IMG/VR virus record: IMGVR_UViG_2740892015_000005
Location: 1 to 44,032 of that record
Length of the DNA: 44,032 bases
Origin: a virus
Taxonomy: Duplodnaviria > Heunggongvirae > Uroviricota > Caudoviricetes
Reading direction: 5' to 3' (one strand)
The notes beneath the pieces were generated by a model. The model saw only the letters and a program-made list of their open reading frames with translations. It had not been told where the DNA came from and did no database searches. The first letter of the stretch is position 1. Every line of letters begins with the position of its first letter. Below are positions 1-34,619 of the stretch, one piece after another. Position numbers and translations under genes: made by a program.

Positions 1-3000
1 CTATCCCGGGGTTTCCTCCTTCATGTTGTGCTGGCGATGGAGAGCAGTACTGCTGACGCTGTCATGCCATAAGCGGGTATAGAGGCCGCCCGCAGATAAC
101 AGCTGTTCGTGGGTTCCGTATTCCGCAAGTAACCCCTTATCAATAACGGCAATCAGATCGCAGCGTTGCGCGGTGGTCAGACGATGTGCAACAATCAGCG
201 CCGAGTGCTTCCCGGCATGCACGACATCTGTTAACGATGACATCAGTCGTTCTTCGGATGTGCGATCCAGACATGACGTGGCTTCGTCGAGCAGCAGGAT
301 GTGGGCATTCGCCAGTTGCGCGCGGGCCAGCGCAATCAACTGGCGCTGACCTGCGGGCAGATCGGCTCCGCCGTTATTCACCGGTGTCCGGAATCCCTGC
401 GGCAGATTGCACACCATCTCATACAGCCCTGCCCGCTGTGAGGCAATTTCAACGTCTTCATTGGTGGCGGATGGCCGTGAATAACGAATGTTTTCTGCAA
501 TATCACTACTAAACAGTGCTACATCCTGATCGACAAGCCCAATCTGGCGACGATACTCAGTGAGCGAGGCATCATCGAGCATTTGCACACCGATTCTGAT
601 GTTGCCGTGCGTGGGGAAATACAACCCGGCAATCAGCTTAATCAGCGTCGACTTACCCGCACCGCTGCGACCGACGACCGCGACAACCATTCCCTCTGGG
701 ATCGTCAGGGTAAGTTTGTTCAGAGCTGGCTCGTGACTGTCGGGATAACTGAACGTGACCTCATCAAGATGCAGTGCACCGGTGACAGGGAGGACCGAAG
801 AGGACCCGAGGTTCTCAGTGCCTTCTGTCGCCAGTAGTTCATCAATATGTTTGCCGCTGGCTGTCGCCTGCTGCCAGGCGTCGACAATCCCTGATAACTG
901 CTGCACTGGCCCATAGAATTGCCCCAGCAACAGGAAGAAAGCCGCCAGTACCCCGGCAGTCATTTCTCCAGCGGCGACCTGCGAAGCTCCCACTAACAGA
1001 ACAGCGGCATAGGAGGCCTCGGTGCAGAATGTCAGGAACGGAAAATAGACTGCAAGGTATTTTTGTGCTCGCACACGGGTTGCGCGGAAACGCTCCGATA
1101 ACGCGCGCAGCCGGGCGCCCTCCAGTTCCTGCTGACCATGCGATTGCACGACACGCAGGCCAGAGACTTTTTCCTGCAGGGTGCTGTTGACTTTGCCTAT
1201 TTCCAGCCGTGCCTGTGCATAAGCAGGGGTACTGAGGCGGCGATAAATCATGGTTGCCAGTGCGGCCACTGGCACTGCGCTTAATGCCGTCAGCGCCAGG
1301 AACGGGTCGAGCCAGAACATGGTGGCGGCGATTGCGAACATCGTCACCAGACTGGTGGCCGCACCGGCAAGGCCGTTTTGCAGAAAGCGGGCGAGAGAGT
1401 CCACATCAACGGTCATGCGGGTAAGACGCGAATCGGCATGCTTTTCATGCCAGGGGAGTCCAAGACGCAGCATATGGCCGAAGCTGCGCAAGCGCACCGA
1501 ATGCTGAACTGATTCCGCCGCTCTGGCGGCGAAGACCGTCTGCAGAGAATAACTGCACCAGCCCACAATGACCAGGCACAGGGCGAGCAGGGCACAGAGG
1601 CCGATGATCGACATATCGCCTGCGGCGACACCGGAGTCAATGCCGTGCTGCAACAGTATCAGTACCCCTACGCCTGCCGCAGAATCGAGTGCGATCAGCA
1701 GAGCGGCGATGACGAACATCCACGCCACAGGCTTCAGTAGTGACGTGACTTTGCGACCTTTACCGGCCAGCGCCTGCTGTACTGCATTTTCCGGTACGCG
1801 GGTCATACGGGCGACAAAACCTTTATCCCCCGTATCCGTTACATCGTCTTGTGTCGCTGGTTCAGCCGGCCACAATTCGTTGTGGCTATTGTGGGACGTG
1901 GCCAGAAAATCGCTGTCGCCGGTCATCAGTGCGCGGAACGCCGGACAGCGCGCTTCAAGTTCTGCCGGGGTTCCGGTATCCACCATACGGCCCTTATCCA
2001 GCACCACAACCCGGCTGGCTAGCTGAAGTGTTGAACGCCGTCGGGCAATCACCAGCAGCATATGCCCTTCGTCAGCATAGCGACCCAGCGCGGTATTAAT
2101 CTCCGCTTCCGTAACAGCATCAACCGCTGAGGTAGTATCATCCAGGATTAACACGTCCGGTGCAGTAATGAGCGCCCGCGCCAGCGCTATTCGCTGCCTC
2201 TGCCCGCCGGAAAGATTCGTACCCCGTTCGGTTAACAGGCTATCGAAGCCTTTCGGCAGGGCGTTAATAAAATCGCTGGCTCCTGCAGCAGCTGCCGCAC
2301 GGCGAATGTCGTCCGCCGTTGCCTGAGGGTGGCCATAGGCGATATTTTCCGCCACCGTACCGGCAAACAGAAAAGCATCTTCAAATACGATGCCTACCCG
2401 GCGACGAAGCGCCTCCAGTCTGATATCGCGAAGATTTTGTCGGCCTTCGCTGGTGTTGAGCCATATCTTTCCGGAGCAGGGATCATAAAAACGCGCCAGT
2501 AGCATCAACAGGGTCGATTTTCCTGAACCCGATGCGCCCACCACCGCCACGGTTTCACCGGCGCGCAGGGAAAAGGAGATATTGCTGAGGATATGTCTGT
2601 CGCCATGGTGGTAGTCAAAGCTCATATTCTCCAGTTCCAGTCCGACAACCTGACTGTTAATCGACTCCGTCCCGTCCTCCATCTGTGAACGGGTGTCGAT
2701 CAGTGCAAACACCCGCTCCACGGACGCCTGAGTGCGCTGTGCGATAACCAGAAACGATGCCAGTACGCGGGTTGGCCCGGTCAGCATCGCGAGGAAGCTG
2801 GCGAATGCAACGAAGGTACCGAGATCGATCCGCCCGTGCATGACCGACCACCCGCCGTAGCACAGCAGGACGATTTGCCCGAGCACCGGTAGCGCCAGCA
2901 TGGTGGCCCCAGGCATCGCCTGCGAGATAACCGCACCGATGCGTACACGCACAATCTGCCGCGACTGCCTATCGAGCCAGTGCGTTTCACGCATCTCTGC

Positions 3001-3660
3001 CACACAGGATTTTACCACTGAGATCTGTGCCAGCACCTCGCGTATATGTTCGGTGAGATTCGCCAGTTGGTCCGAGGCCAGCCCGGTTTGCGCGAAGACC
3101 CTACGACGCGCACGAAGCGCGGTGATCGCCAGGCATACCAGTACGCACACGACGATAAGCGTCATGGCAGGGGACATCCACAGCATCACGGCAATGCCGG
3201 CAATGTAATAAGTGAACACTGCCAGCGGCACCGGGCACATCTGCAGCAGGGTATGCACCTGCTGCAGATCGCTGTTGGTCCGTGAAATCACCTGCCCGGT
3301 GCGCAGCGCATCCTGGCCTGCGCCGTCAAGTTTCTGAATACTGTCGAATACCCGTCCTCTGAGGGTATGCTGCACCCAGAGTGAGAGCATCCCGGCATAA
3401 CCACGGCGCACATAGTTACCGATGAAATCAAAAAAAGCGATCAACAGTAACCCGCAGGCCAGCCACGGCAGGCGGGCCGGATTGCCCGCCAGTGCGTCAT
3501 TCACAGCCTGTCTTGTCAGCAGTGGCGTCAGCGCAGCCAGCAAAATAGTCGATACTGACGCTACCACCACGATGACACTAAGTTTCTTACGTTCCCAGCA
3601 CACGCGCGCTAGGCGAACTATCCATGACTGAGCCGGTGTGGGAGTGTGATTCGCAGGCAT
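1..3660 (-). CDS. Fused ABC exporter (TMD-NBD-TMD-NBD), siderophore/peptide-exporter type (IroC-like architecture); chromosomal flanking gene
   Basis: Two Walker A motifs (GASGSGKST and GRSGAGKST), two LSGGQRQR signature motifs and two hydrophobic permease domains in one ORF. The ORF track extends to 3786, but a GGAGG Shine-Dalgarno precedes the ATG at 3660 (MPANHTP...), giving about 1219 aa. GC content is visibly higher than in the prophage. Confidence 0.8.
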   Translation of the reverse strand: MPANHTPTPAQSWIVRLARVCWERKKLSVIVVVASVSTILLAALTPLLTRQAVNDALAGNPARLPWLACGLLLIAFFDFIGNYVRRGYAGMLSLWVQHTLRGRVFDSIQKLDGAGQDALRTGQVISRTNSDLQQVHTLLQMCPVPLAVFTYYIAGIAVMLWMSPAMTLIVVCVLVCLAITALRARRRVFAQTGLASDQLANLTEHIREVLAQISVVKSCVAEMRETHWLDRQSRQIVRVRIGAVISQAMPGATMLALPVLGQIVLLCYGGWSVMHGRIDLGTFVAFASFLAMLTGPTRVLASFLVIAQRTQASVERVFALIDTRSQMEDGTESINSQVVGLELENMSFDYHHGDRHILSNISFSLRAGETVAVVGASGSGKSTLLMLLARFYDPCSGKIWLNTSEGRQNLRDIRLEALRRRVGIVFEDAFLFAGTVAENIAYGHPQATADDIRRAAAAAGASDFINALPKGFDSLLTERGTNLSGGQRQRIALARALITAPDVLILDDTTSAVDAVTEAEINTALGRYADEGHMLLVIARRRSTLQLASRVVVLDKGRMVDTGTPAELEARCPAFRALMTGDSDFLATSHNSHNELWPAEPATQDDVTDTGDKGFVARMTRVPENAVQQALAGKGRKVTSLLKPVAWMFVIAALLIALDSAAGVGVLILLQHGIDSGVAAGDMSIIGLCALLALCLVIVGWCSYSLQTVFAARAAESVQHSVRLRSFGHMLRLGLPWHEKHADSRLTRMTVDVDSLARFLQNGLAGAATSLVTMFAIAATMFWLDPFLALTALSAVPVAALATMIYRRLSTPAYAQARLEIGKVNSTLQEKVSGLRVVQSHGQQELEGARLRALSERFRATRVRAQKYLAVYFPFLTFCTEASYAAVLLVGASQVAAGEMTAGVLAAFFLLLGQFYGPVQQLSGIVDAWQQATASGKHIDELLATEGTENLGSSSVLPVTGALHLDEVTFSYPDSHEPALNKLTLTIPEGMVVAVVGRSGAGKSTLIKLIAGLYFPTHGNIRIGVQMLDDASLTEYRRQIGLVDQDVALFSSDIAENIRYSRPSATNEDVEIASQRAGLYEMVCNLPQGFRTPVNNGGADLPAGQRQLIALARAQLANAHILLLDEATSCLDRTSEERLMSSLTDVVHAGKHSALIVAHRLTTAQRCDLIAVIDKGLLAEYGTHEQLLSAGGLYTRLWHDSVSSTALHRQHNMKEETPG

Positions 3661-10084: not shown

Positions 10085-10149
10085 AGGATGCTCCTTCTGT
10101 TTGATTGCATAACGAAAACGCCTCGAGTGAAGCGTTATTGGTATGCATA

Positions 10150-10174
10150 TAAAAAAGCCCTCACATTGGAGGGC
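10150..10174 (-). terminator. Rho-independent terminator (minus strand)
   Basis: GCCCTC-ACATTG-GAGGGC hairpin followed by a T-run on the minus strand, between the 65-aa moron and cIII. Confidence 0.5.
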
Positions 10175-10278
10175 AAAGAAGATTTCCAATAATCAGAACA
10201 AGTCGGCTCCTGTTTAGTTACGAGCGACATTGCTCCGTGTATTCACTCGTTGGAATGAATACACAGTGCTTCTCTGTG

Positions 10279-10476
10279 CTAAATAATTAAATCATATTCT
10301 GATTTGGTTAGTTTATAAGTACCTCCTCTGGTGTAATATGCAAATCTGTCTTTGCTTCCATCAGAATTGTATACCCATCCACCAAATGGAAAGATAGTGT
10401 CTATTTCTCCAATATCTTTTTCACAACTAAATGTCTTTCCATTTTTAGTTGAATATGACTTACCAACTGTCAACAT
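10279..10476 (-). CDS. AT-rich small protein (65 aa), moron-like
   Basis: GAGG Shine-Dalgarno before the ATG; low GC; bracketed by terminator-like hairpins on both sides. Confidence 0.45.
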   Translation of the reverse strand: MLTVGKSYSTKNGKTFSCEKDIGEIDTIFPFGGWVYNSDGSKDRFAYYTRGGTYKLTKSEYDLII

Positions 10477-10497
10477 CTTCGCCTCTGCTGTTTATGC

Positions 10498-10530
10498 CAA
10501 AAATAAAGGCCACCATCAGGCAGCCTTGTT
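10498..10530 (-). terminator. Possible terminator after ral (minus strand)
   Basis: Imperfect hairpin (AGGCTGCC...GGTGGCCT with G-U pairs) followed by TTATTTTT on the minus strand. Confidence 0.35.
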
Positions 10531-10716
10531 TTTCTGTTTACCAAGTTCTCTGGCAATCATTGCCGTCGTTCGTATTGCCCATTTATCGACATATTTCCCA
10601 TCTTCCATTACAGGAAACATTTCTTCAGGCTTAACCATGCATTCCGATTGCAGCTTGCATCCATTGCATCGCTTGAATTGTCCACACCATTGATTTTTAT
10701 CAATAGTCGTAGTCAT
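10516..10716 (-). CDS. ral: Restriction-alleviation protein Ral-like
   Basis: 66-aa product MTTTIDKNQWCGQFKRCNGCKLQSECMV... matches my recollection of lambda Ral almost residue for residue. A 28-aa acidic ORF sits just upstream, as orf28 does in lambda. Confidence 0.6.
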   Translation of the reverse strand: MTTTIDKNQWCGQFKRCNGCKLQSECMVKPEEMFPVMEDGKYVDKWAIRTTAMIARELGKQKNKAA

Positions 10717-10919
10717 ACGGATAGTCCTGGTATTGTTCCATCACATCCTGCGGATGCTCTTCGAACTCTTCAAATTCTTCTTCCATATATCACCTCAAAT
10801 AAGTGGTTTGCTGCCTAATTTCATTTTCTGGCGACCAACACAAGTCACACCCATTTCACTGCGTGGCTTGCGGTAGTAAATACGGTTATTTATGTCATTA
10901 AAAACCAGCGTGAGCGTGG

Positions 10920-11186
10920 TTATTTTTTCTTTCCAAGAGATGGAAGACCTCCAGAATAATCTGGACCACTTGAACGATGCATTTGATACAATATTGCGTT
11001 TTTGTTGGCGTTTAGTGGCTTTGTTGCGAAAGAAATTTTTTCTCGTTTTACATCTCTTATCATCATCAACTCACGTTCTGATGCTTTTGGATGATAATCA
11101 TTGATATGCTTCCATGCTGCCTTGGCGCTGAATTTTCTTCCACATAAAGGGCAATAGCATTTATATGATACTTGTTTGCTAGTCAT
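10920..11186 (-). CDS. Small C2H2-like zinc-finger protein (88 aa)
   Basis: Motif CPLCGRKFSAKAAWKHINDYH (C-x2-C-x12-H-x4-H). Low-GC ORF directly downstream of N. Confidence 0.45.
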   Translation of the reverse strand: MTSKQVSYKCYCPLCGRKFSAKAAWKHINDYHPKASERELMMIRDVKREKISFATKPLNANKNAILYQMHRSSGPDYSGGLPSLGKKK

Positions 11187-11188
11187 TT

Positions 11189-11497
11189 CTATCTCGCCGT
11201 AATTGATTTCATTGACCTGTAACCAGCAGCATACAGTGCAACTTCAGGCAAACAAACGCTTCCGCCATTCGCATCTGTATTTGATTTACTGATGATGCCG
11301 AGTGATATTGCTTTTTCAGAAAGACTTAAACGCTTTCTCGGTTCTTCCTGAACAGCTTCCTCACTGTCTGTGCCGAAGATCGAATCGATGATGTTGCAGA
11401 TGGAATCACGCTCGATAGCCAGCTTTCTGCGCCGCTCATGACGGCGAGTTTTGGCATTTCCTGCAAATGTTGATTTTCCGTACACGATTACCGTCAT
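11189..11497 (-). CDS. N: Antitermination protein N (P22 gene 24 type)
   Basis: N-terminal arginine-rich motif GNAKTRRHERRRKLAIER is the P22 N boxB-binding peptide. GAGGAA Shine-Dalgarno precedes the ATG at 11497; the ORF track's longer 130-aa form is probably an over-extension. Confidence 0.8.
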   Translation of the reverse strand: MTVIVYGKSTFAGNAKTRRHERRRKLAIERDSICNIIDSIFGTDSEEAVQEEPRKRLSLSEKAISLGIISKSNTDANGGSVCLPEVALYAAGYRSMKSITAR

Positions 11498-11616: not shown

Positions 11617-11650
11617 GCGCTTTGTCAGCGCCCCATCGAAGTTAAAGAGC
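11617..11650 (-). promoter_or_regulatory. nutL (boxB hairpin plus boxA-like element)
   Basis: Minus-strand GCGCTGACAAAGCGC equals the P22 boxB-left sequence. GGCTCTTTAAC, resembling boxA CGCTCTTTA, lies just upstream in the transcript. Confidence 0.65.
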
Positions 11651-11694: not shown

Positions 11695-11730
11695 AAATAG
11701 TACGATGTGTACTTTATTGAGTCAATACAA
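11695..11730 (-). promoter_or_regulatory. Putative PL promoter with overlapping operator palindrome
   Basis: Minus-strand TTGACT, 17-nt spacer, TACTAT. The palindrome AGTACGATGTGTACT overlaps the -10 region. Coordinates are approximate to within a few bases. Confidence 0.4.
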
Positions 11731-11850: not shown

Positions 11851-12510
11851 TTAACTAAATGTCTCTTCAGGCCACTGGCTGGCGATAACTTTCCCTACTA
11901 CGGAACAGCTATCATTGCATGGGATCATTGGATATTGCGGGTTTAGTGGTTGTAGGAACACCTGACCGCTATCCCTGATCAGTTTCTTGAAGGTAAACTC
12001 GTCACCACCAAGTCTGGCTATGCAGAAATCACCTGGCTCAACAGCCTGCTCAGGGTCAACGAGAATTAACATCCCGTCAGGAAAGCTTGGCTTGGATCCT
12101 GTTGGTGCGGTCATGGAATTACCTTCAACTTCAAGCCAAAACGCACAATCACTGGCTTTTTTGGTTGTGCTGACCCATCTCTCCGCATCACCTTTGGTAA
12201 AGGTTCTAAGCTCAGGCGAGAACATCCCGGCCTGAACATGAGAAAAAACAGGGTACTCATATTGTTTTTTAACGGGGGCAGATGAGTATTCGCCAACAGG
12301 TGAAAATGTACCGTCGTGGTTGAATGAGACGTTATCAATACCAAGGTATTTAAACACCACACCAATCTCGTCAAGAGATGGATGACGAGATCCGCGCAAC
12401 CAGTGACCAATTCCACCCTGCGTCATACCAAGCTCTTCAGCTAACTTCTCTTGAGTTATGCCGAGTTCTTTCATTCTGGATCTAGCCAGTTCATACCATT
12501 TCATTTTCAT
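11851..12510 (-). CDS. cI: CI-type prophage repressor (HTH N-terminal domain plus LexA/S24-like C-terminal domain)
   Basis: The C-terminal roughly 130 aa ([39 protein letters not shown]...) is near-identical to the lambda cI C-terminal domain as I recall it. The N-terminal HTH domain is different. AAGGA Shine-Dalgarno precedes the ATG at 12510 (MKMKWYEL...). Confidence 0.9.
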
Positions 12511-12567
12511 ATCCTTATTATTACGCTCTGTACTAAAACCATCCATGCACAAGATGTATTTTTTTGT

Positions 12568-12596
12568 TTGCATTCCAAAAGTACATATCGTATTAT
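12568..12596 (+). promoter_or_regulatory. Putative PR promoter / OR operator region
   Basis: TTGCAT, 17-nt spacer, TATTAT upstream of cro. AGTACATATCGTATT resembles the OL palindrome and overlaps the -10. Confidence 0.45.
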
Positions 12597-34164: not shown

Positions 34165-34619
34165 TGATTACATTCAAACCAACGCGAAACATCGACCTGA
34201 TCGAAGCTGTCGGAAATCACCCTGACATTATTGCCGGGAGCAACAACGGTGATGGATACGACTACAAGCCTGAATGCCGTTACTTTGAGGTGAACGTGCA
34301 CGGGCAGTTCGGCGGCATTGTTTACTATCAGGAGATTCAGCCGCTTACATTCGATTGCCACGCCATGTACCTGCCAGAGATTCGCGGCTTCAGCAAGGAA
34401 ATAGGGCTGGCGTTCTGGCGATACATTCTGACTAACACCACCGTTCAGTGCGTCACATCGTTCGCCGCACGCAAATTCCGCCACGGTCAGATGTACTGCG
34501 CAATGATTGGCCTTAAGCGTGTAGGAACCATCAAGAAATACTTCAAAGGCGTGGATGACGTGACGTTTTACAGCGCCACACGCGAAGAACTAATCGACTT
34601 CCTGAATCACGGGAGATAG
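34164..34619 (+). CDS. P22 gp14-like head/ejection-associated protein (assigned by synteny)
   Basis: Position between gp26 and gp7 homologues; size 151 aa. Confidence 0.45.
   Translation: MITFKPTRNIDLIEAVGNHPDIIAGSNNGDGYDYKPECRYFEVNVHGQFGGIVYYQEIQPLTFDCHAMYLPEIRGFSKEIGLAFWRYILTNTTVQCVTSFAARKFRHGQMYCAMIGLKRVGTIKKYFKGVDDVTFYSATREELIDFLNHGR

What the first reader, a model, noticed from the sequence alone, without database searches (positions are those of the whole stretch)
10150..11186. AT-rich morons within the PL operon: a 65-aa gene flanked by terminators and a C2H2-like zinc-finger protein next to N
The 65-aa gene (10279..10476) has its own Shine-Dalgarno and is bracketed by hairpin terminators, the classic layout of an independently expressed moron. 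The 88-aa protein (10920..11186) has a eukaryote-like C-x2-C-x12-H-x4-H spacing that is rare in phage early genes. Both sit beside the Ral-like anti-restriction gene, where anti-defence functions tend to cluster.
Basis: partly seen in the sequence, partly recalled or inferred. Interest (0 to 1): 0.45.

Follow-up and report, generated by a model that had tools for sequence, protein, structure and literature searches.

The report
N-linked zinc-finger gene plus small cassette
Two small AT-rich genes in the early leftward operon of an E. coli lambda-like prophage are real: one is an orphan 65-codon insert of unknown role. The other belongs to an unstudied family of one-finger zinc proteins that always sits right behind the phage's early antitermination device, so it probably acts on host transcription.

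Summary
Both ORFs exist as described, on the minus strand of a lambdoid E. coli prophage PL operon, in the order cI, PL, nutL, N, ZnF, remnant of a phage-21 N, orf28, ral, orf65, cIII. Neither is a classical moron.

**orf65 (10279-10476)** is a promoter-less 214-bp ORF cassette. It lies between hairpins that are also present in phages without the insert. It is an orphan with almost no sequence variation, and its function is unknown.

**The 88-aa protein (10920-11186)**
- Its motif is C-x2-C-x11-H-x4-H, not x12, and the four ligands are invariant across a real family under strong purifying selection.
- Family members lie 2-33 nt behind N or Nun-like genes of at least six types.
- Others lie directly behind an HK022-type putL RNA, where HK022 has nun.
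- Others replace N as finger::N-C-terminus chimeras, one of which passes Pfam's N_peptide threshold.
- Its tail, SGGLPSLGKKK, is a strictly C-terminal motif on more than 100 tiny basic proteins from distant bacteria.

My best reading is inferred, not shown: a modular N/Nun-like factor made of a recognition finger plus a docking peptide that acts on the transcription elongation complex. All database names are "hypothetical protein".

The parts
10279..10476 (-). orf65: a 65-aa orphan ORF (MLTVGKSYSTKNGKTF...), predicted to be beta-rich
   Evidence: ORF. PHROG 15499 (unknown function), E=6e-49. No Pfam, NCBIfam or PADLOC hit. Only near-identical homologues among 5.8 billion proteins. AF2 pLDDT 49. 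18 of 20,000 shuffles reach this ORF length. Not annotated in the RefSeq record of the source genome.
10270..10483 (-). 214-bp inserted cassette that carries orf65. Empty sites have about 10 bp (AATAAACACT) instead.
   Evidence: Pairwise BLAST and alignment against phage 21, prophage MS1718 and IGC_RcoliRes. GC is 33%.
10506..10527 (-). Backbone terminator-like hairpin plus T-run overlapping the end of ral, just upstream of orf65
   Evidence: -13.9 kcal/mol. Also present where orf65 is absent, and behind a different 83-aa gene in L010.
10222..10266 (-). Conserved 14-bp-stem hairpin without a T-run, immediately downstream of orf65 (backbone)
   Evidence: RNAfold gives -20.6 kcal/mol. The sequence is present in about 2,230 of 5,426 E. 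coli genomes.
10117..10174 (-). Two tandem backbone terminator-like hairpins (10157-10174 and 10117-10136) before cIII
10516..10716 (-). ral (restriction alleviation)
   Evidence: Pfam PF11058, E=1.2e-47.
10700..10786 (-). orf28: an acidic 28-aa ORF (MEEEFEEFEEHPQDVMEQYQDYPYDYDY) overlapping the ral start, as in lambda
   Evidence: The equivalent lambda CDS is 34271-34357.
10795..10887 (-). Untranslated remnant of the 3' end of a phage-21-type N gene (...GVTCVGRQKMKLGSKPLI*). It marks a mosaic junction.
   Evidence: 98% identical to the end of phage 21 N. Translation. A frameshift fusion to it is seen in P0004.
10920..11186 (-). 88-aa zinc-finger protein. It has a finger C12/C15/H27/H32, a basic helix (ERELMMIRDVKREK), a disordered linker and the C-terminal tail SGGLPSLGKKK.
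11189..11497 (-). P22-type N antiterminator. It has an Arg-rich motif NAKTRRHERRRK and the C-terminal peptide CLPEVALYAAGYRSMKSITAR.
   Evidence: Pfam PF25694, E=6.7e-37. Sequence.
11617..11650 (-). nutL: boxA-like GCTCTTTAA (11642-11650) and P22-type boxB GCGCTGACAAAGCGC (11617-11631)
   Evidence: That this sequence is the P22 boxB comes from my own knowledge.
11697..11725 (-). PL-like promoter (TTGACT, 17 nt spacer, TACTAT)

Best explanation
Both ORFs are real genes read as part of the N-antiterminated PL transcript. They are not self-contained morons.

**orf65** is a promoter-less single-ORF cassette dropped into the conserved, hairpin-rich spacer after ral. It depends on PL read-through and encodes a small beta-rich orphan protein. 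I treat it as host-interaction cargo of unknown target.

**The 88-aa gene** belongs to a conserved Enterobacterales phage family of one-finger, C2H2-like zinc proteins. This family is the fixed downstream neighbour of the early antitermination device, whether that device is N, a Nun-like gene or put RNA.

The family is modular. It consists of a finger and basic helix, followed by no tail, by the RNAP-engaging C-terminal peptide of P22-type N, or by the tail SGGLPSLGKK[KR]. Elsewhere that last tail is attached to Arg-rich mini-proteins.

I therefore infer that the window protein works like N or Nun. The finger and basic helix would recognise a nucleic acid or a factor at the start of early transcription, and the C-terminal peptide would dock on the elongating RNA polymerase or another universally conserved partner. 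The effect would be to modulate elongation or termination.

**Shown:** gene reality, family, ligand conservation, synteny, chimeras and tail distribution.

**Inferred:** zinc binding, the RNA/RNAP target, and the direction of the effect.
For: **orf65**
- It is a clean 214-bp indel with backbone hairpins on both sides and no promoter.
- The ORF length is non-random, at 18 of 20,000 shuffles.
- It occurs in three different flanking contexts: ral or an 83-aa gene upstream, and ea10, a 56-aa gene or an 82-aa gene downstream.

**Zinc-finger family: reality and fold**
- An exhaustive HMMER search finds a family with invariant C, C, H, H and an IRDxRR helix.
- pN is 0.21 against pS 0.91.
- AF2 gives beta-beta-alpha topology.
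- The best PDB profile and fold matches are C2H2/UBZ fingers.

**Zinc-finger family: synteny**
- In 10 of 10 contexts of the 75%-identical variant, the gene lies 2 nt after an N gene, across different immunity regions.
- In 27 of 27 IMG/VR loci with the tail-type finger, it lies within 33 nt after (one overlapping by 4 nt) an Arg-rich N gene of several types. In one case the upstream gene is Nun-like (...VNHAHQRRPGKKW).
- 42 short-type loci lie behind N genes of five reference types (including lambda, P22 and phage-21-like Arg-rich motifs), 37 of them 7-8 nt away (others 13, 58, 611).
- About ten short-type loci lie directly behind an HK022-type putL, with a compensatory stem change, where HK022 has nun.

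**Zinc-finger family: chimeras**
- In N-less phages a finger::N-C-terminus protein is the first PL gene.
- One such protein passes Pfam N_peptide gathering, at 33.4 bits against a cut-off of 27.9.
- It is 72% identical to an N over the last 25 residues.
- It also matches annotated N genes of Stx phages.

**Tail**
- 117 of 120 retrieved proteins carry [SQ]GG[LIV]PSLG[KR] with 1-3 residues left to the C-terminus. They are a median of 61 aa long and 26% Lys/Arg.
- The tail is also found in Wenzhouxiangella, Pseudohaliea and Acidobacteriaceae.

**Precedent**
- HK022 Nun has an N-terminal Arg-rich motif that binds RNA and a C-terminus that binds RNA polymerase (PMC4124055, PMC5386594).
Against: - There is no direct evidence for any target.
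- The window protein itself does not hit N_peptide, and its profile shows no similarity to N.
- The same short finger occurs behind unrelated N types and behind put RNA, so it does not co-vary with N or nut specificity. This fits any generic immediate-early function, including anti-defence.
- A terminator right after the finger gene, which would make it an immediate-early unit with N, is present in the L016 type but in only 29 of 86 loci, and not in the window.
- Tail-bearing mini-proteins are not obviously in phage early regions.
- Structure models are low-confidence, with pLDDT 49 for both.
- For orf65 there is no variation to test selection, and NCBI's annotation pipeline did not call it in the source genome.
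Confidence: 0.35

Rival explanations
1. Both small proteins are anti-defence factors, such as anti-restriction or inhibitors of other immunity. They cluster with Ral and are expressed early to neutralise host defences.
For: - Both flank ral.
- The N-to-cIII interval is clearly a cargo hotspot. In otherwise similar prophages it holds sieB, Nmad5, DUF2528, ea10 or unknown genes.
- Both genes are AT-rich and patchily distributed, in 6 and 14 of 5,426 complete E. coli genomes.
- The short finger is independent of N type, as a generic early function would be.
- A very PL-proximal position gives the earliest possible expression.
Against: - There is no similarity to any known anti-defence protein or fold.
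- It does not explain the finger::N-C-terminus chimeras in N's place, or the strict adjacency to N, Nun or put, as opposed to a position anywhere in the hotspot.
- Ral itself is absent from several loci that carry the finger.
Confidence: 0.2
2. The 88-aa protein is a Nun-like superinfection-exclusion factor. It is made by the prophage or early in infection and arrests or terminates transcription of competing lambdoid phages rather than helping its own.
For: - Family members occupy exactly the nun position behind HK022-type putL.
- The modular build matches Nun: a recognition module plus a C-terminal RNAP-type peptide (PMC4124055).
- Neighbouring positions often hold exclusion genes such as rexAB and sieB.
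Against: - One locus has a Nun-like gene and the finger gene together (L123), so the two are not simple alternatives.
- No promoter for prophage expression was seen.
- No target RNA has been identified.
Confidence: 0.15
3. The 88-aa protein is an ordinary sequence-specific DNA-binding regulator, a single C2H2-like finger plus a basic helix, that controls a phage or host promoter. Its place next to N reflects only physical linkage at a mosaic boundary.
For: - It resembles C2H2 fingers, which classically bind DNA.
- The N plus finger block, with a remnant of another N gene behind it, moves as one recombination module.
Against: - A single finger rarely gives specific DNA binding (my own knowledge).
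- The linkage persists across at least six N/Nun types and across put phages, with silent sites saturated in the one pair compared (window vs L016). This is hard to explain by hitch-hiking alone.
- The universal C-terminal tail points to a conserved protein partner.
Confidence: 0.12
4. orf65 is not a functional gene. The 214-bp insert would be a recombination scar or a fragment of a larger gene that happens to keep an open frame.
For: - It is not annotated in the RefSeq source genome.
- All copies are about 99-100% identical, so purifying selection cannot be shown.
- The AF2 model is poor.
- There are no homologues outside the near-identical cluster.
Against: - The ORF fills 198 of the 214 inserted bases, with ATG and GAGG correctly placed.
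- That length is reached in 18 of 20,000 shuffles.
- The intact ORF is kept in three different flanking contexts and on several hundred contigs.
- No longer relative was found of which it could be a fragment.
Confidence: 0.1

Closest known systems
Lambda/P22 N antiterminators (Pfam N36 PF11438; N_peptide PF25694)
   Same: - Both are small, largely disordered proteins encoded at the very start of the PL operon.
- Both have a modular build: a recognition module at the N-terminus and a short C-terminal peptide.
- Relatives of the window protein carry the actual P22-type N C-terminal peptide and pass the PF25694 threshold.
   Different: - The window protein has a Cys2His2 finger instead of an Arg-rich motif.
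- It has a different tail, SGGLPSLGKKK.
- It gives no N_peptide hit.
- It coexists with a bona fide N and nutL, so it is not the phage's primary antiterminator.
HK022 Nun (transcription-arrest exclusion protein)
   Same: - Family members sit at the nun position behind an HK022-type putL.
- The logic is the same two-module one, recognition plus a C-terminal peptide directed at RNA polymerase (PMC4124055, PMC5386594).
   Different: - There is no sequence similarity to Nun.
- One locus has both a Nun-like gene and the finger gene.
- No evidence exists for arrest or exclusion.
Classical C2H2 zinc fingers (Pfam zf-C2H2 PF00096, zf-C2H2_4, zf-Di19; UBZ fingers)
   Same: - The ligand order is Cys-Cys-His-His, with Phe and an aromatic residue at the canonical core positions.
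- The predicted topology is beta-beta-alpha.
- The best sequence and fold matches are such fingers, for example ZFAT finger 12 at rmsd 1.3 A over 27 columns.
   Different: - The spacer is 11 residues, not 12.
- All Pfam scores are below the curated cut-offs (14-20 bits against 25-27.5).
- It is a single finger in a bacterial virus.
Morons of lambdoid phages (Hendrix/Juhala sense: an inserted gene with its own promoter and terminator)
   Same: orf65 is extra DNA between genes that are adjacent in relatives, and its base composition is atypical.
   Different: The insert carries no promoter or terminator of its own. The flanking terminators belong to the backbone.
TraR/DksA-like small zinc proteins of phages and plasmids, such as lambda Orf73 (from my own knowledge)
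   Same: It is a small zinc-finger protein encoded in the leftward early region of a lambdoid phage and proposed to act on RNA polymerase.
   Different: It has a Cys4 finger and coiled-coil fold that binds the secondary channel. There is no sequence relation, and it was not tested here.

Membership tests
Moron (self-contained inserted transcription unit) | Extra gene between two genes that are adjacent in related phages | tested here: met
   For orf65, a 214-bp indel is seen against phage 21 and prophage MS1718. For the zinc-finger gene this is not met: it is a constant partner of N.
Moron (self-contained inserted transcription unit) | Own promoter carried by the insert | tested here: not met
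   The insert has only about 7 nt upstream of the ATG. The sigma-70 consensus scan finds no minus-strand site between orf65 and ral. A consensus scan cannot exclude weak or unusual promoters.
Moron (self-contained inserted transcription unit) | Own terminator carried by the insert | tested here: not met
   The hairpins at 10506-10527 and 10117-10174 lie outside the insert and are conserved in empty sites.
Moron (self-contained inserted transcription unit) | Expression from the repressed prophage | not testable with these tools
   Needs RNA-seq or 5'-end mapping of the lysogen.
C2H2 zinc finger (Pfam PF00096 and relatives) | C-x2-4-C-x12-H-x3-5-H ligand spacing | tested here: not met
   The spacing is C-x2-C-x11-H-x4-H throughout the family.
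C2H2 zinc finger (Pfam PF00096 and relatives) | Score above the family's curated cut-off | tested here: not met
   zf-C2H2 scores 14.1 against 25.2, zf-C2H2_4 14.9 against 27, and zf-Di19 19.6 against 27.5. Relatives also stay below the cut-offs.
C2H2 zinc finger (Pfam PF00096 and relatives) | Beta-hairpin plus helix fold with Cys on the hairpin and His on the helix | tested here: inconclusive
   AF2 places strands at 9-11 and 18-20 and a helix at 21-31, but pLDDT is only about 65 there. Foldseek top hits are C2H2/UBZ fingers, but all have E>1.
C2H2 zinc finger (Pfam PF00096 and relatives) | Zinc binding | not testable with these tools
   Needs metal analysis of purified protein.
N antiterminator, P22 type (Pfam PF25694 N_peptide) | Score above the gathering threshold | tested here: not met
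   The window 88-aa protein gives no hit at E<=1. A chimeric relative from Yersinia scores 33.4 against 27.9.
N antiterminator, P22 type (Pfam PF25694 N_peptide) | N-terminal Arg-rich motif matched to a boxB hairpin in nutL/nutR | tested here: not met
   The 88-aa protein has no Arg-rich N-terminus. The window's own N has one, and a P22-type boxB is present.
Anti-restriction / anti-defence proteins (Ral, Ocr, Ard and others) | Sequence or fold similarity to a known member | tested here: not met
   There is no Pfam, PHROG-function or NCBIfam hit for either protein. PDB and viral fold searches gave nothing. No dedicated anti-defence library was available.
Anti-restriction / anti-defence proteins (Ral, Ocr, Ard and others) | Relief of a defence system in vivo | not testable with these tools
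   Needs plating assays.

The most novel reading that the evidence does not exclude
The strictly C-terminal peptide [SQ]GG[LIV]PSLGK[KR][KR] could be a previously unrecognised, phylum-spanning docking motif for a universally conserved bacterial machine, most plausibly the transcription elongation complex. If so, it defines a large hidden class of tiny two-module regulators, made of an Arg-rich motif or a zinc finger plus the tail, that work like N or Nun far outside lambdoid phages. The finger-bearing members would then be a third solution to early transcription control in lambdoid phages, beside Arg-rich N/Nun proteins and put RNA.
Probability: 0.2. Interest if true: 0.8.

Novelty: new variant of a known kind. 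Interest (0 to 1): 0.55.

Why it matters
The start of the lambda PL operon is one of the best-studied stretches of any genome. Even so, a conserved zinc-finger gene that follows N, Nun-like genes or put RNA in many Enterobacterales prophages has no name, no Pfam family and no study. Prophages of Escherichia, Salmonella, Leclercia, Yersinia and Arsenophonus carry it.

Three things would follow if it acts on the elongation complex:
- It would add a new type of recognition module, and possibly a new docking peptide, to the N/Nun paradigm.
- It would give a handle on more than 100 tiny basic proteins of unknown function that carry the same tail.
- It would make direct experiments possible, including pull-down, in vitro transcription and deletion in an inducible prophage.

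If it turns out to be anti-defence instead, its fixed immediate-early position would itself be informative.

orf65 matters less. It shows how single ORFs are inserted into the terminator-rich spacers of the PL operon and are missed by standard annotation.

Tried and rejected
**Homology and family searches**
- For orf65, Pfam, NCBIfam and PADLOC gave nothing. PDB phmmer gave only repeat-driven or sub-threshold matches, to a flagellin repeat and ChlaDub2.
- The word-indexed homology search found only near-identical copies of both proteins.

**Structure prediction**
- AF2 gave pLDDT 49 for both, so the models are weak.
- The fold search of the orf65 model against viral structures was meaningless.

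**RNA elements**
- An Rfam scan of the leaders in N-less phages found no put or nut family. The put identity rests instead on direct alignment to HK022 and on putL/putR repeats.
- I looked for a nutR-like copy of the structured leader hairpin in the Yersinia-type (L029/L032) phages. The result was inconclusive.

**Relation to N**
- Profile-profile comparison of N with the finger family was weak, and null for the tail type.

**The idea of an immediate-early unit closed by tL1**
- This holds only for a minority of loci, and I rejected it as a general rule.

**The tail**
- There is no PDB precedent and no paper with the string.
- I considered resemblance to the clamp-binding motif, the FtsZ C-terminal peptide, a sortase LPxTG signal, GlyGly-CTERM and a ClpX degron. 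None fits the spacing, and none was tested.

**Other**
- The first alignment given to the locus finder was too diverse to use.
- A literature search for zinc fingers next to N found nothing relevant.
Full report
**Setting.** The window is 100% identical over the region to a prophage in E. coli chromosome NZ_OZ040490.1. The minus strand carries a lambdoid early-left operon, in this order:
- a cI-like repressor at 11851-12573;
- a PL-like promoter at 11725-11697;
- a boxA-like GCTCTTTAA at 11642-11650 and a P22-type boxB GCGCTGACAAAGCGC at 11617-11631;
- N of the P22 type at 11189-11497 (Pfam N_peptide, E=6.7e-37);
- the 88-aa ORF at 10920-11186;
- a 93-nt remnant of the 3' end of a phage-21-type N gene at 10795-10887;
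- the acidic orf28 at 10700-10786, as in lambda;
- ral at 10516-10716 (Pfam Ral, E=1.2e-47);
- the 65-aa ORF at 10279-10476;
- a cIII-like gene, then the recombination genes.

**Observation check.** Both ORFs, the Shine-Dalgarno sequence of orf65 (GAGG, 5 nt before the ATG), the flanking hairpins and the low GC content are all present. GC is 31.3% for orf65 and 36.3% for the zinc-finger gene, against 46.8% for the window. Two details are wrong:
- The ligand spacing is C-x2-C-x11-H-x4-H, not x12.
- The hairpins are not part of a mobile unit.

**orf65.**

*Structure of the insert.* Comparison with phage 21, lambda-type phages and the near-identical prophage of strain MS1718 shows a clean replacement. 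About 10 bp (AATAAACACT) in those genomes is replaced by 214 bp (10270-10483) here. The insert consists of the ORF plus about 7 nt before it and 9 nt after it.

*The hairpins are backbone.*
- The hairpin and T-run that overlaps the end of ral (10506-10527, -13.9 kcal/mol) is present in the empty sites.
- So are a 14-bp-stem hairpin at 10222-10266 (-20.6 kcal/mol) and the two terminator-like hairpins at 10117-10174.
- The downstream flank is present in about 2,230 of 5,426 complete E. coli genomes.
- No promoter-like site lies upstream on the coding strand.
- orf65 must therefore be read from PL by N-modified polymerase, which ignores these terminators. That last point rests on established knowledge of N.

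*Distribution and contexts.*
- The cassette occurs in 6 of 5,426 complete E. coli genomes and 4 phage records, 2G7b and PhiR11_1. It also occurs on several hundred assembly contigs.
- Upstream it has ral or an unrelated 83-aa gene that shares the same 3' hairpin. Downstream it has ea10, a 56-aa gene or an 82-aa gene.

*Is it a real gene?*
- All copies differ at only two nucleotide positions, so selection cannot be measured.
- An ORF this long is rare by chance, at 18 of 20,000 shuffles of the insert.
- It has no relatives beyond the near-identical cluster and no family with a known function. Its model is poor: beta-rich, pLDDT 49.
- NCBI's annotation pipeline did not annotate it in the source genome.

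*Verdict.* It is a real but orphan cargo gene. It resembles a moron only in being extra AT-rich DNA.

**The 88-aa protein: gene and fold.**
- The ATG lies 2 nt after the N stop codon.
- The word-indexed search found only close copies. The exhaustive HMMER search found a family of 50-117-aa proteins.
- In the family alignment C12, P13, C15, F19, H27, I28, H32, L40, R44 and R48 are invariant or nearly so. The pattern is a finger followed by A-[ST]-[DE]-x-[ED]-L-x2-IRDARR.
- Against the 75%-identical variant, synonymous sites are saturated (pS 0.91) while pN is 0.21. The last 16 residues are identical except for the terminal K/R.
- AF2 gives strands at 9-11 and 18-20, a helix at 21-31, a second helix at 37-48 and a disordered remainder, with pLDDT about 65 in the finger.
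- Pfam zinc-finger families match every member tested but always below the cut-off.
- The family profile's best PDB matches are C2H2 fingers. The Foldseek top list is dominated by C2H2/UBZ fingers, but all have E>1.
- A C2H2-like finger is therefore the best reading, but formal membership is not met.

**The 88-aa protein: where the family sits.** This is the main result.
1. In 14 of 5,426 complete E. coli genomes the gene always follows the same N gene, while the downstream cargo varies: ral, a 156-aa gene or Nmad5.
2. The 75% variant lies 2 nt after a different N in 10 of 10 places. That N has another Arg-rich motif but the same C-terminal peptide. The immunity regions at these places differ.
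3. In IMG/VR, 27 of 27 finger genes with the GGLPSLGKK tail lie within 33 nt after (one overlapping by 4 nt) an Arg-rich N of several types. One follows a Nun-like protein ending ...VNHAHQRRPGKKW.
4. A short form of 48-66 aa follows N genes in 42 loci, 37 of them at 7-8 nt. These N genes have lambda, P22 and phage-21-like Arg-rich motifs and either lambda-type (...KSIPLI) or P22-type (...VTAR) ends.
5. In about ten N-less loci the same short form lies about 75 nt after a sequence roughly 90% identical to HK022 putL. That sequence has a compensatory change in the first stem (GACG/CGTC to GTCG/CGAC). This is the place where HK022 has nun.
6. In about 27 further N-less loci a longer form is the first gene after the repressor and PL.
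   - Several of these have put-like leaders with matching putL/putR repeats.
   - Thirteen of the long forms end in the C-terminal peptide of P22-type N (...CLPQVAIFSAGYRKSEAVTAR).
   - One, from Yersinia frederiksenii, passes Pfam N_peptide gathering at 33.4 bits against 27.9. It is 72% identical to an N over its last 25 residues and matches annotated N genes of Stx phages.

Only 2 of 50,697 deposited phage records carry any family member, phiKp_30 and PDP110P2, and neither is characterised. Every database name is "hypothetical protein".

**The tail.**
- A pattern scan of one genome per species found GG[LI]PSLGKK at the extreme C-terminus of unrelated small proteins. These come from Wenzhouxiangella, Pseudohaliea, an Acidobacteriaceae genome and an uncultured gammaproteobacterium. 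The Wenzhouxiangella protein has an N-terminal Arg-rich stretch.
- A profile of the tail retrieved 120 proteins of 29-77 aa, mostly from metagenomes. Of these, 117 have [SQ]GG[LIV]PSLG[KR] followed by only 1-3 residues. The median Lys/Arg content upstream of the motif is 26%. One has the same C-x2-C-x11-H-x4-H finger.
- The contexts are mixed, both phage-like contigs and chromosomal islands.
- There is no PDB precedent and no paper.

**Interpretation.** N proteins are visibly modular in these data. Arg-rich motifs and C-terminal peptides recombine; for example, L057 has a P22 Arg-rich motif with a lambda-type end. The finger family extends this grid in three ways:
- finger with the P22-type N end;
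- finger with the GGLPSLGKK tail;
- finger alone.

Arg-rich mini-proteins with the GGLPSLGKK tail also exist. By this modular logic the finger and basic helix stand in for the Arg-rich recognition module. The tail stands in for the C-terminal peptide directed at RNA polymerase. That peptide is known for Nun (PMC4124055, PMC5386594) and, from my own knowledge, for lambda N.

I therefore favour an N/Nun-like action on the early elongation complex, at confidence 0.35. Three points weigh against it:
- The short finger does not co-vary with N type and also follows put RNA.
- The window protein has no similarity to N.
- Nothing identifies the partner.

A generic immediate-early role, including anti-defence, remains open.

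**Novelty and score.** orf65 is an ordinary orphan cargo gene. The finger family is unstudied, and its fixed link to the N/Nun/put position, the chimeras and the widespread tail were not expected in so well-studied a region. I rate the finding as a new variant of a known kind, with interest 0.55.

Noticed in passing
window 10795-10887 (-): A 93-nt untranslated remnant of the 3' end of a phage-21-type N gene (...GVTCVGRQKMKLGSKPLI*) lies just after the zinc-finger gene. The 75% variant has an analogous remnant of a lambda-type N end (...KSIPLI*) after its terminator. The N plus finger block therefore seems to have been recombined into an older N gene at least twice. One database protein (P0004) is a frameshift fusion of the finger to this remnant.
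   Followed up: partly
window 10700-10786 (-): An acidic 28-aa ORF (MEEEFEEFEEHPQDVMEQYQDYPYDYDY) overlaps the ral start and begins 8 nt after the N remnant. It is the equivalent of lambda CDS 34271-34357. It is not annotated in the RefSeq source record.
   Followed up: partly
window 10222-10266 (-): A very stable 14-bp-stem hairpin without a T-run (-20.6 kcal/mol) lies directly after orf65. It is part of a spacer conserved in about 2,230 of 5,426 E. coli genomes. Its role is unknown; it could be a processing site or part of the tL2 cluster.
   Followed up: no
window 10279-10476; L003 (NZ_OZ040490.1): orf65 is missing from the RefSeq annotation of the very genome the window comes from, although other records annotate the identical protein.
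   Followed up: yes
L108-L111; proteins P0035-P0154: The strictly C-terminal motif [SQ]GG[LIV]PSLGK[KR][KR] occurs on more than 100 tiny, mostly very basic proteins (29-77 aa) from distant bacteria and metagenomes. It has no structural or literature precedent.
   Followed up: partly
L053, L071, L089, L101 around 3380-3450; L026, L037, L040, L047, L052 leaders: HK022-type and more distant put-like antiterminator RNAs lie upstream of finger genes in N-less prophages. Their first stem covaries (GACG/CGTC, GTCG/CGAC, AGTG/CACT, GCTG/CAGC around the loop AACGGCG/A), and matching putL/putR copies are present. Rfam has no model that detects them.
   Followed up: partly
L029 and L032 around 3370-3400: A conserved leader hairpin shows compensatory changes (GAAGTGA...TCACTTC against GGGGTGA...TCACCCC, loop GCGATGTAA) and is followed by a boxA-like GTGTTCTTTAA. 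It lies upstream of the finger::N-tail gene in Yersinia-type prophages. It may be a new nut- or put-like element. No clear PR-side copy was found.
   Followed up: partly
L123 around 2700-3000: A Nun-like protein has an Arg-rich motif (NRRYKERGELIAKRK) and a Nun-type end (VNHAHQRRPGKKW). It is followed 13 nt later by a tail-type finger gene.
   Followed up: no
L057 and L066, upstream of 3489: Natural N hybrids combine a P22-type Arg-rich motif with a lambda-type C-terminal end (...KTRGKSIPLI). This shows that N modules recombine.
   Followed up: no
L005, L006, L001 (interval between N and cIII): The interval after N and the finger gene is a cargo hotspot. In otherwise similar prophages it holds ral, a 156-aa unknown gene, an Nmad5-family gene, sieB, DUF2528 or ea10.
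   Followed up: partly
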